From Promethearchaeota archaeon (GTDB lineage Archaea > Asgardarchaeota > Hermodarchaeia > Hermodarchaeales > Hermodarchaeaceae), in NCBI GenBank assembly GCA_048938295.1, contig JBHLMI010000010.1:30001-62000 (forward strand): a stretch of DNA of 32,000 bases, in the 5' to 3' direction. How positions within the stretch are numbered: position 1 is the first letter of the stretch; each line of letters begins with the position of its first letter. The position numbers and the translations under genes were made by a program. Shown piece by piece: positions 19,445 through 20,649 of the stretch. A model generated the notes under the pieces. The model worked only from the letters and a program-made list of their open reading frames with translations. It was not told the origin of the DNA and did not search any database.

Positions 19445-19526
19445 ATGTAGGACTCTCCATCACTCCCTTTTTATTTAGTAACCTCAATTAAGACAATAAA
19501 CGCCTCAAGAGTTGGATGTGTACTGG

Positions 19527-20126
19527 ATGCTTCAAGGGATATTCATCGCAATTGAAGGTATCGATGGAAGTGGGACGACCACACATGCAAAACTACTATG
19601 TAACTGGCTTAGGAAACAAGCGCTAGAGGTGGTCCAAACCCATGAACCCACTGATGAAAGAATTGGTCGCCTTATTCGAGTAATATTACAGGACACCACG
19701 GTATCTCCTGCCATTGATGCACTGCTTTTTGCCGCAGATCGTATCGATAACACAATCAATAAAATCCAACCCGCCCTCGACCAAGGGAAAGTCGTAGTTA
19801 CAGACCGCTATGTTGAATCCTCTTATGCCTACCAGTGCTCCTCGGGACTTGACCGCGAATGGGTTCAGAATCTGAACCGATATGCTCTCACACCCACGCT
19901 TACTTTTCTACTCGACATTGCTCCTAAAATCGCTCTAGCTCGAAAGAGAAGACCAAAGCCAAAAGAAAAATTCGAACATGAAGCATTTCTAACAAAGGTG
20001 CGACAAATATTTCTTGAAAGGGCTCAAGAACAGGGATTCATCGTAATTAACGCAGAACGATCAATCAAAGAAGTTCAAGACCAACTCCAAAAACATGTCG
20101 AACCATTACTCACAAGCCTTAAGTAA
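19527..20126 (+). CDS. tmk: Thymidylate (dTMP) kinase
   Basis: FIAIEGIDGSG, THEP, LLFAADR, VTDRY, SSYAYQ, LDI and EKFE motifs. P-loop reads GSGTTT. Confidence 0.92.
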   Translation: MLQGIFIAIEGIDGSGTTTHAKLLCNWLRKQALEVVQTHEPTDERIGRLIRVILQDTTVSPAIDALLFAADRIDNTINKIQPALDQGKVVVTDRYVESSYAYQCSSGLDREWVQNLNRYALTPTLTFLLDIAPKIALARKRRPKPKEKFEHEAFLTKVRQIFLERAQEQGFIVINAERSIKEVQDQLQKHVEPLLTSLK

Positions 20127-20147: not shown

Positions 20148-20219
20148 GGCGGCAATGAAGAGGAAACCTATAGTCACTGATTACAAGATGAAGTGAACGA
20201 CGGGCGGACTAGAGCCGCC
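20148..20219 (+). ncRNA. Box C/D guide sRNA, predicted to methylate 16S rRNA C1402 (E. coli numbering)
   Basis: Terminal stem GGCGGC (20148-53)/GCCGCC (20214-19). Box C ATGAAGA 20155-61, D' CTGA 20177-80, C' ATGAAGT 20188-94, variant D CT(A)GA 20209-13. The D guide contains GACGGGCGG (20199-207), complementary to the universal 16S CCGCCCGUC. Confidence 0.78.
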
Positions 20220-20274
20220 ACCTTTCTTCAGCACATATTAGAAACCAATTTGATGGTCAATAAAAATGGCTAAT

Positions 20275-20649
20275 CTATGATTGTAAAATGGATTCGATTT
20301 GGCTACTGTACCGTTTCATAACAAGGAAAATCATTCCTAAGTTTGCGCTTTTCTTTACCAAGGATGTGAGAATAGCATTTTCACCAGCGCCTTTCAAAAT
20401 AATATAGCCGTTTTCCGCTTCAACTGTTATCTGCATAAGCTTGCCACGGGGAATCTCTGTCAAAGCGCGTTCTGCAACGCCAAGAAGCGCGGCCGTCATA
20501 GCTGCCACTATAGCCTCATTAACGGTCTGTGGCATTGCCGCTACTATGGGCAAACCCTGTGCGGTAACAATTGCACTGGCTTCAATACCCGGTGTCGTAC
20601 TCTCCATTTGACGAAGGAGATCTTGAAGATTCTTCGCAGTAGCCGACAT
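20275..20649 (-). CDS. Roadblock/LC7 (MglB-like) domain protein
   Basis: 124 aa. GIEASAIVTAQGLPI, AAMTAALLGVAERAL and ITVEAENGYIIL follow the roadblock pattern. Confidence 0.9.
   Translation of the reverse strand: MSATAKNLQDLLRQMESTTPGIEASAIVTAQGLPIVAAMPQTVNEAIVAAMTAALLGVAERALTEIPRGKLMQITVEAENGYIILKGAGENAILTSLVKKSANLGMIFLVMKRYSSQIESILQS

What the first reader, a model, noticed from the sequence alone, without database searches (positions are those of the whole stretch)
20148..20219. Unannotated box C/D sRNA with a variant D box, guiding 16S Cm1402
Seen: 6-bp terminal stem, 3-nt bulge and tandem GA pairs (K-turn). The internal D'/C' K-loop is reinforced by TCACT/AGTGA pairing. The D guide GAACGACGGGCGG is antisense to decoding-site h44 (CCGCCCGUC...). 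Taking box D as CU(A)GA from 20209, the fifth nucleotide upstream (G20204) pairs with C1402. Known: C1402 is 2'-O-methylated across domains (RsmI in bacteria; snR70/SNORD43 in yeast/human). Inference: an Asgard guide RNA for a site also snoRNA-guided in eukaryotes, probably processed from the tmk transcript (21 nt after its stop). The bulged-A D box is unusual. I could not assign a target to the D' guide (GGAAACCTATAGTCA).
Basis: partly seen in the sequence, partly recalled or inferred. Interest (0 to 1): 0.66.

Follow-up and report, generated by a model that had tools for sequence, protein, structure and literature searches.

The report
Asgard guide RNA, five-base D box
This is a real gene for a small guide RNA in an Asgard archaeon that most likely directs sugar methylation of the decoding-site base C1402 of 16S rRNA; it is an ordinary kind of archaeal RNA whose one oddity is an extra base in its anchoring box, fixed across a whole genus.

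Summary
Confirmed. Window 20148-20219 is a box C/D guide RNA gene of a Hermodarchaeia archaeon. It has 18 distinct homologs, all behind tmk. Ten guide bases pair perfectly with the organism's own 16S 1399-1408, at spacer positions 2-11. Syntenic orthologs in the sister genus, Odinarchaeum and Jordarchaeales have a normal CUGA/CCGA box after the same guide, which puts the methyl on C1402. One lineage shows a guide/rRNA compensatory change. The five-base box C-Y-A-GA is an A insertion seen only in this genus (12 of 14 genomes). An A-U/G-C swap supports the bulged register, though probably as a single event. Two corrections: the RNA probably has its own TATA promoter overlapping the tmk stop, and the D' arm looks like a structural spacer, not a guide. 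C1402 guides are already published for Sulfolobus and Methanopyrus, five-base D' boxes for yeast, and the scan found this family before in other genomes. Expression and methylation are not shown. New variant of a known kind.

The parts
20109..20116 (+). BRE-like element of the inferred sRNA promoter, inside the last codons of tmk
   Evidence: CTC/CTG plus a purine-rich run at a fixed distance in 20 homologs; function inferred from archaeal promoter consensus
20119..20125 (+). TATA-like box TTAAGTA overlapping the tmk Leu-Lys-stop codons; inferred sRNA promoter
   Evidence: Invariant in 20/20 homologs at 21-23 nt from the stem while the amino acid varies (L/F/V); AAG in 20/20 against AAA 153: AAG 69 in window genes; kept in the sister genus without adjacent tmk
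20148..20153 (+). 5' strand of the 6-bp terminal stem (C helix of the K-turn)
   Evidence: 100% paired in 18 homologs but never varies there; other stem sequences in other Asgard families
20155..20161 (+). Box C (AUGAAGA; AUGAGGA in other members of the genus)
20162..20176 (+). D' spacer: 12 free nt plus 3 nt paired into the C'/D' stem; probably not a guide
   Evidence: Not conserved; best rRNA/tRNA match no better than shuffles, 38 of 40 as good
20177..20180 (+). Box D' (CUGA)
   Evidence: CUGA in 17 of 18 homologs, CGGA in one with a matching change in C'
20188..20194 (+). Box C' (AUGAAGU); with 20195-20196 it forms the extended K-loop stem with 20174-20178
   Evidence: 4 of 5 stem pairs change on both sides
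20198..20207 (+). D guide, spacer positions 11 to 2; pairs with 16S 1408-1399; G20204 opposite C1402
   Evidence: 10 Watson-Crick pairs with the own 16S; guide A / rRNA U1400 compensation in family f3
20209..20213 (+). Five-base box D, C-U-[A]-G-A; A20211 is the inserted base
   Evidence: Orthologs have CUGA/CCGA at the same place; the C-Y-A-GA form with this guide is in 12/14 genomes of this genus; A-U 9 / G-C 9 at 3b-3n
20214..20219 (+). 3' strand of the terminal stem
20220..20229 (+). Pyrimidine-rich tail, possible archaeal terminator
   Evidence: T/C-rich in most homologs; function inferred, weak
19512..20126 (+). tmk (thymidylate kinase), upstream neighbour
   Evidence: PF02223, E 4e-52
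20275..20649 (-). Roadblock/LC7 gene, convergent downstream neighbour
   Evidence: PF03259; same arrangement in the sister genus, Odinarchaeum and Jordarchaeales

Best explanation
A roughly 72-nt single-guide box C/D sRNA. It is transcribed from its own BRE/TATA promoter buried in the end of tmk (inferred). It folds into a terminal K-turn and an internal K-loop, binds L7Ae, Nop5 and fibrillarin (genes present; binding inferred), and pairs spacer positions 2-11 with 16S 1399-1408 (pairing shown in sequence). The inserted A20211 is looped out between the sheared G-A pairs and stem II, so that U20210 pairs with A20159 and C20209 with G20160. The count then starts at C20209 and fibrillarin 2'-O-methylates C1402 (inferred). 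The longer spacers (15 and 14 nt) come back to the usual 12 free nt each because of extra pairs in the C'/D' stem. The D' arm is a scaffold only.
For: Own 16S target, 10 bp. The duplex falls exactly on positions 2-11 with 1 and 12 unpaired, as in solved archaeal RNPs (PMC9670817). Syntenic orthologs have a normal D box and N+5 = C1402. A canonical-box pattern hits 100 of 400 Asgard genomes against about 18 for the reversed control, but 0 of 14 relatives in this genus and not the own genome, so the variant is the only C1402 guide found there. The bulged register pairs 18/18 at both stem II positions with A-U 9 / G-C 9; the unbulged one is 50% paired. In this RNA C20209 is the only C available for stem II. 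In yeast the 5' C of the D box sets the ruler, and a CUUGA insertion did not move the target (PMC5389607). Guide A faces rRNA U1400 in family f3. Fibrillarin, Nop5 and L7Ae are present, RsmI (TIGR00096) was not found in a 91.6% complete genome, and the Nop5 C-terminal domain matches solved archaeal Nop5 closely.
Against: No transcript ends, no L7Ae binding and no methylation data. The A-U/G-C swap may be a single event (2 changes, one origin not ruled out), and kin are not independent. One genus member (G011) has an extra A before the box, which would move N+5 to G1401; its 16S was not assembled. The yeast evidence concerns C'/D' motifs and Nop56, not an archaeal terminal K-turn. One low-depth RNA contig of a relative runs from tmk into the sRNA, which fits read-through or DNA carry-over.
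Confidence: 0.8

Rival explanations
1. Box D is the unbulged four-base UAGA/CAGA, alone or alternating with the five-base form, so the RNA methylates G1401 instead of, or as well as, C1402 (two registers, as in yeast U18/snR13/snR48).
For: Half of the homologs read CCAGA, where CAGA gives G-A and G-C in stem II, an acceptable K-turn. Overlapping four- and five-base D' boxes give two adjacent methylations in yeast (PMC5389607). G011 points to G1401 in the bulged count.
Against: In this RNA the unbulged register gives A-A, G-U, A-C in stem II and removes the 5' C of box D. The duplex would move to positions 3-12, and to 4-12 in L045 and L051. All canonical orthologs aim at C1402, the site conserved across domains (PMC11542601).
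Confidence: 0.1
2. The insertion weakens or stops catalysis. The RNA still binds the base of helix 44 as a folding chaperone or blocker but does not methylate.
For: Bind-but-not-methylate guides at this region are described in Pyrobaculum (sR25:C1368 mismatch, PMC6009581). Jordarchaeales orthologs carry an A-C mismatch at position 7. The spacing slips in G011.
Against: Position 5 is a G opposite C1402 in 17 of 18 homologs. Stem II stays Watson-Crick through a compensatory change. No other C1402 guide and no RsmI were found.
Confidence: 0.07
3. The stretch is not an independent RNA but a tmk 3' element: a terminator-like hairpin (GGCGG/CCGCC, 20203-20219, then a T-run) or an L7Ae-bound mRNA K-turn.
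For: A terminator-like hairpin is called here, and its energy is near that of the terminal stem (-7.7 against -8.9 kcal/mol). One RNA contig bridges tmk and the element.
Against: Orthologs keep the boxes and guide but not the hairpin's 3' arm. The element persists without tmk upstream or with tmk divergent. The guide co-varies with rRNA.
Confidence: 0.03

Closest known systems
Sulfolobus acidocaldarius Sac-sR122 and Methanopyrus kandleri MKAsR114 (Dennis et al. 2015, PMC4644070, additional file 1)
   Same: Box C/D sRNAs with a GAUGGGCGG guide whose fifth base before the box faces C1402 (my count on the sequences); similar size and four-box layout.
   Different: There the C1402 guide sits before D' with a four-base box (UUGA, CCGA). 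Here it sits before the terminal D box, which has five bases. Common descent was not tested; any guide for this site must look alike.
Asgard orthologs with a normal D box (sister genus, Odinarchaeum yellowstonii, Jordarchaeales, Baldrarchaeia) and non-syntenic same-target guides in Heimdallarchaeum endolithica and other families
   Same: Same D guide and target; tmk and/or roadblock-peptidase neighbourhood in the first group.
   Different: CUGA/CCGA box, usually a 12-nt D spacer, and shorter or different terminal stems. None matched Rfam above cut-off; I found no paper describing them.
Yeast snR13, U18, snR48 and the hU24 CUUGA mutant (van Nues and Watkins 2017, PMC5389607)
   Same: Extended (five- or six-base) D' boxes in which the 5' C sets the methylation register.
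   Different: Eukaryotic internal C'/D' motifs that give two adjacent methyls. Here it is an archaeal terminal box with the extra base between U/C and GA, and a single site is predicted.
Eukaryotic guides for the same site (Arabidopsis U43, human Cm1703, yeast Cm1639; the names SNORD43 and snR70 are from memory)
   Same: Target is the equivalent of E. coli C1402 (PMC11542601).
   Different: No sequence homology outside the guide was shown; no Rfam hit to any of them.
Bacterial RsmI
   Same: Makes the same 2'-O-methyl on C1402 (PMC11551388).
   Different: Stand-alone protein; not found in this genome.

Membership tests
Archaeal box C/D methylation guide sRNA | Box C (RUGAUGA-like) near the 5' end and box C' inside | tested here: met
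   AUGAAGA and AUGAAGU; UGA and the following G are invariant in 18 homologs
Archaeal box C/D methylation guide sRNA | Box D' (CUGA-like) | tested here: met
   CUGA 20177-20180; 17 of 18 homologs
Archaeal box C/D methylation guide sRNA | Terminal box D as the literal four-base CUGA | tested here: not met
   C-U-A-GA or C-C-A-GA in all 18 homologs; canonical in orthologs outside the genus. For this reason it is filed as a variant, not as a plain member.
Archaeal box C/D methylation guide sRNA | K-turn-forming C/D motif: terminal stem, 3-nt bulge, tandem G-A pairs, stem II with the box D C paired to the box C G | tested here: met
   Met in sequence if A20211 is looped out: 18/18 paired with a two-sided change. 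The fold itself is not shown.
Archaeal box C/D methylation guide sRNA | Guide of 9-12 nt complementary to the organism's own rRNA with a Watson-Crick pair at N+5 | tested here: met
   10 bp with own 16S 1399-1408, G20204-C1402
Archaeal box C/D methylation guide sRNA | Compact size (60-70 nt) and spacers of about 12 nt | tested here: met
   72 nt; 12 free nt in each spacer once the C'/D' stem is formed (PMC9670817)
Archaeal box C/D methylation guide sRNA | Host encodes L7Ae, Nop5 and fibrillarin | tested here: met
Archaeal box C/D methylation guide sRNA | Expressed as a discrete small RNA | tested here: inconclusive
   One contig of depth 2.9 from a relative (27 differences in 193 nt) in one metatranscriptome; contigs cannot show ends or strand
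Archaeal box C/D methylation guide sRNA | Binds L7Ae/Nop5/fibrillarin and directs 2'-O-methylation | not testable with these tools
   Needs reconstitution or modification mapping
Double-guide archaeal sRNA | Second (D') guide with a conserved target | tested here: not met
   D' spacer varies and scores at chance level against the assembled rRNA and tRNAs; the 5' half of 16S, part of 23S, 5S and some tRNAs could not be scanned
Existing Rfam sR or SNORD family | Score above the gathering cut-off | tested here: not met
   Best 14-20 bits against cut-offs of 36-50
SNORD43/U43/snR70 orthologs | Homology beyond the target-dictated guide | not tested
   No Rfam hit appeared; no dedicated alignment was made

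The most novel reading that the evidence does not exclude
The five-base terminal box lets one archaeal guide use two registers and methylate both C1402 and G1401 of the decoding site (or lets genus members such as G011 shift between them), which would be the archaeal counterpart of the yeast two-site snoRNAs.
Probability: 0.1. Interest if true: 0.6.

Novelty: new variant of a known kind. Interest (0 to 1): 0.36.

Why it matters
It adds an uncatalogued guide-RNA family that aims at the cross-domain decoding-site mark Cm1402 in several Asgard classes. It also offers a natural experiment: a genus-wide A insertion in the terminal D box, with unmodified orthologs in the sister genus as control. One reconstitution would test whether the archaeal enzyme measures from the 5' C of box D, as shown for yeast D' boxes. 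Pattern searches that demand CUGA miss this RNA. It does not change the picture of how C/D guides work or of eukaryote origins.

Tried and rejected
Rfam searches of the window and of eight ortholog loci: nothing above cut-off. MFE folding is uninformative for K-turn RNAs (z -0.5). A second, 12-bp match of the D guide to the tip of helix 44 in the own 16S scored above 40 shuffles but is absent from G014, which has the identical guide, and from G006 and G016; rejected as chance. D' arm targets: none above chance. An alternative box CGGA at 20205-20208 was rejected because it is CGUA or CGAA in L045, L051 and G011 and leaves the stem out of register. The loose pattern was noise. My first architecture script had a matching fault and was redone. 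The internal helix given to model R1 was misregistered by one column on each side; the model was used only to find homologs, and pair counts were redone. A relaxed genome scan found no other convincing C/D RNA, although the scan's notes list others, so that scan is insensitive and I cannot say which D boxes the other guides of this genome use. The RNA run held one weak contig. The sigma-70 promoter scan does not apply to archaea. Paper searches found no description of Asgard C/D guides and no K-turn with a single base inserted between 2n and 3n in the review read; the library is incomplete.

Full report
Observation. The 72 bases lie in the 148-base gap between tmk (PF02223) and a convergent roadblock gene (PF03259). 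The layout is: stem GGCGGC, bulge AAU, box C AUGAAGA, 15-nt spacer, box D' CUGA, 7-nt loop, box C' AUGAAGU, 14-nt spacer, C-U-A-GA, stem GCCGCC. Rfam has no family for it. A scan for this four-box-plus-stem layout returns only this locus in the genome and nothing in five shuffles.

Organism. The closest tmk relatives in named genomes include Candidatus Hermodarchaeum yapensis and other Hermodarchaeia MAGs, so the Asgard assignment holds. The genome encodes fibrillarin and Nop5 side by side, and L7Ae. The bacterial C1402 enzyme RsmI was not found; the genome is 91.6% complete.

Target. The 3' half of the own 16S is on contig C48. Bases 20198-20207 form 10 contiguous Watson-Crick pairs with 1399-1408 (E. 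coli numbering). Counting from C20209, these are spacer positions 2-11; positions 1 and 12 mismatch, and G20204 (position 5) faces C1402. Solved archaeal RNPs pair exactly positions 2-11 and leave 1 and 12 free (PMC9670817). C1402 is ribose-methylated in E. coli, Pyrococcus abyssi (Cm1369), yeast, human and plants (PMC11542601).

Conservation near by. Eleven same-genus genomes matched by DNA search and a twelfth through its tmk locus. With metagenomic contigs there are 18 distinct sequences, all directly behind tmk. Boxes, stem and guide are nearly invariant, and the D' spacer, the loop and the flanks are not. The C'/D' stem shows two-sided changes at 4 of 5 pairs. In this RNA that stem takes up 3 nt of the D' spacer and 2 nt of the D spacer and leaves 12 free nt in each, the usual archaeal length.

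The variant D box. All 18 have a five-base C-Y-A-GA. Two registers are possible. With the A looped out, both stem II pairs form in 18 of 18 sequences, and the first pair is A-U in nine and G-C in nine. Without a bulge (box YAGA, target G1401) only half of the cells pair. The swap may be a single event on the tree, so alone it is modest support. The orthologs are stronger evidence. A covariance model found them in the sister genus and three further families, next to tmk and/or the roadblock and peptidase genes; gene names identify Odinarchaeum yellowstonii and Jordarchaeales. All have CUGA or CCGA right after the same guide, with position 5 on C1402. A pattern for C' box, guide and normal D box hits 100 of 400 Asgard genomes, against about 18 for the reversed control. 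Most of the 30 loci inspected, including Heimdallarchaeum endolithica and a Baldrarchaeia genome, have an upstream C box; four are chance matches. That pattern hits none of the 14 same-genus genomes or the own genome, whereas the five-base form hits 12 of 14 and the own genome; its scattered hits elsewhere have mixed guide sequences and were not inspected. So the A is a derived insertion, and the variant is the only C1402 guide found in the genus. In yeast the 5' C of a D' box sets the register, and inserting a base after it did not move the target (PMC5389607). That paper also shows that overlapping four- and five-base boxes can give two adjacent methyls, which is why the G1401 rival is kept.

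Guide-target covariation. In family f3 both guides have A at position 3, and the one assembled 16S has U1400 in place of C1400. This is one case, but it is what a guide acting on 16S predicts and a tmk terminator does not. Two irregular cases remain: Jordarchaeales guides have an A opposite C1404, and G011 has one extra A before its box, which would shift N+5 to G1401.

Transcription. Here the evidence favours an own promoter. TTAAGTA sits 21-23 nt before the stem in 20 of 20 homologs. The codon it overlaps changes between Leu, Phe and Val, and the Lys codon is always AAG although AAA is preferred 153 to 69 in the window's genes. A BRE-like run precedes it. The same box is kept in the sister genus, where tmk is not adjacent, and in Odinarchaeum tmk is divergent. 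Several of the genome's tRNA genes have similar TTTAAA/TTAAA boxes upstream. Read-through from tmk is not excluded: one low-depth RNA contig of a relative spans both, but it may be DNA.

D' arm. It differs among close relatives, its 3' bases are tied up in the stem, and its best match to the assembled rRNA and tRNA is no better than shuffles. The 5' half of the 16S and parts of the other RNAs are missing from the assembly, so a target is not excluded, but the lack of conservation argues for a scaffold.

Comparison. It works like a standard archaeal C/D methylation guide. Published archaeal guides for the same site are Sac-sR122 and MKAsR114, which use the D' arm (PMC4644070; lead from the scan's notes, checked here). 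It departs from the family definition in one tested feature, the four-base D box, and is therefore filed as a variant. Homology to eukaryotic U43-type snoRNAs is not shown. The scan had noted this family in other genomes before.

Verdict. Real and well supported. Shown: sequence, conservation, synteny, complementarity, covariation, machinery genes. Inferred: promoter use, K-turn fold with a looped-out A, methylation of C1402. Interest is modest, resting on the genus-wide box insertion and its ready-made controls.

Noticed in passing
L001:1168-1200 (own 16S, contig C48); also L171, L172, L173: A 33-nt bulge-helix-bulge-shaped intron sits between C1397 and A1398, one base before the guide's duplex. 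An insert at the same site is present in all four Hermodarchaeia 16S genes recovered and absent from Odinarchaeum, Jordarchaeales and family f3. The guide's target lies wholly in the 3' exon.
   Followed up: partly
L001:125-745 and L001:1329-1420: The own 16S also has an insert of about 620 nt near position 978 and short inserts in helix 45; G014 has similar ones, G006 one, G016 none.
   Followed up: no
L001:1203-1316: Helix 44 is 14-21 nt longer in Hermodarchaeia than in Odinarchaeum and Jordarchaeales, an extension at the tip of the helix.
   Followed up: partly
L166:1602-1603 (G031, family f3): 16S has U at the nearly universal C1400, matched by an A in the guide; many guides in families f11, f16, f19 and f22 also have this A, and their 16S was not checked.
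   Followed up: partly
L035:2138-2208 (G011): Homolog with three A before the five-base box; N+5 lands on G1401. Its 16S was not found.
   Followed up: partly
L155:1501-1563, L158:1501-1564, L174 (Jordarchaeales, Baldrarchaeia): Guides carry a conserved A opposite C1404, a mismatch two bases from the target.
   Followed up: partly
L147-L150 (sister genus): tmk is missing from this locus and was not found at E 1e-30 in the four genomes, yet the CTTAAGTAA that ends tmk in this genus is still there as the sRNA's upstream box.
   Followed up: partly
families f9 (2 of 135 genomes), f21 (1 of 22), f27 (0 of 12), f18 (0 of 6): Several large Asgard families have almost no match to the C1402 guide pattern; they may have lost it or use another form. 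Not found with this query only.
   Followed up: no
L177-L188, L191, L192 (Heimdallarchaeum family): These C1402 guides share a conserved D' spacer core (ACAACGGTC), unlike the variable D' arm here, so they are probably double guides.
   Followed up: no
L133 (own 23S 3' part, contig C20), about 850-1515 bases from the contig end: The 23S gene has an insert of about 660 nt with an open frame in domain V.
   Followed up: no
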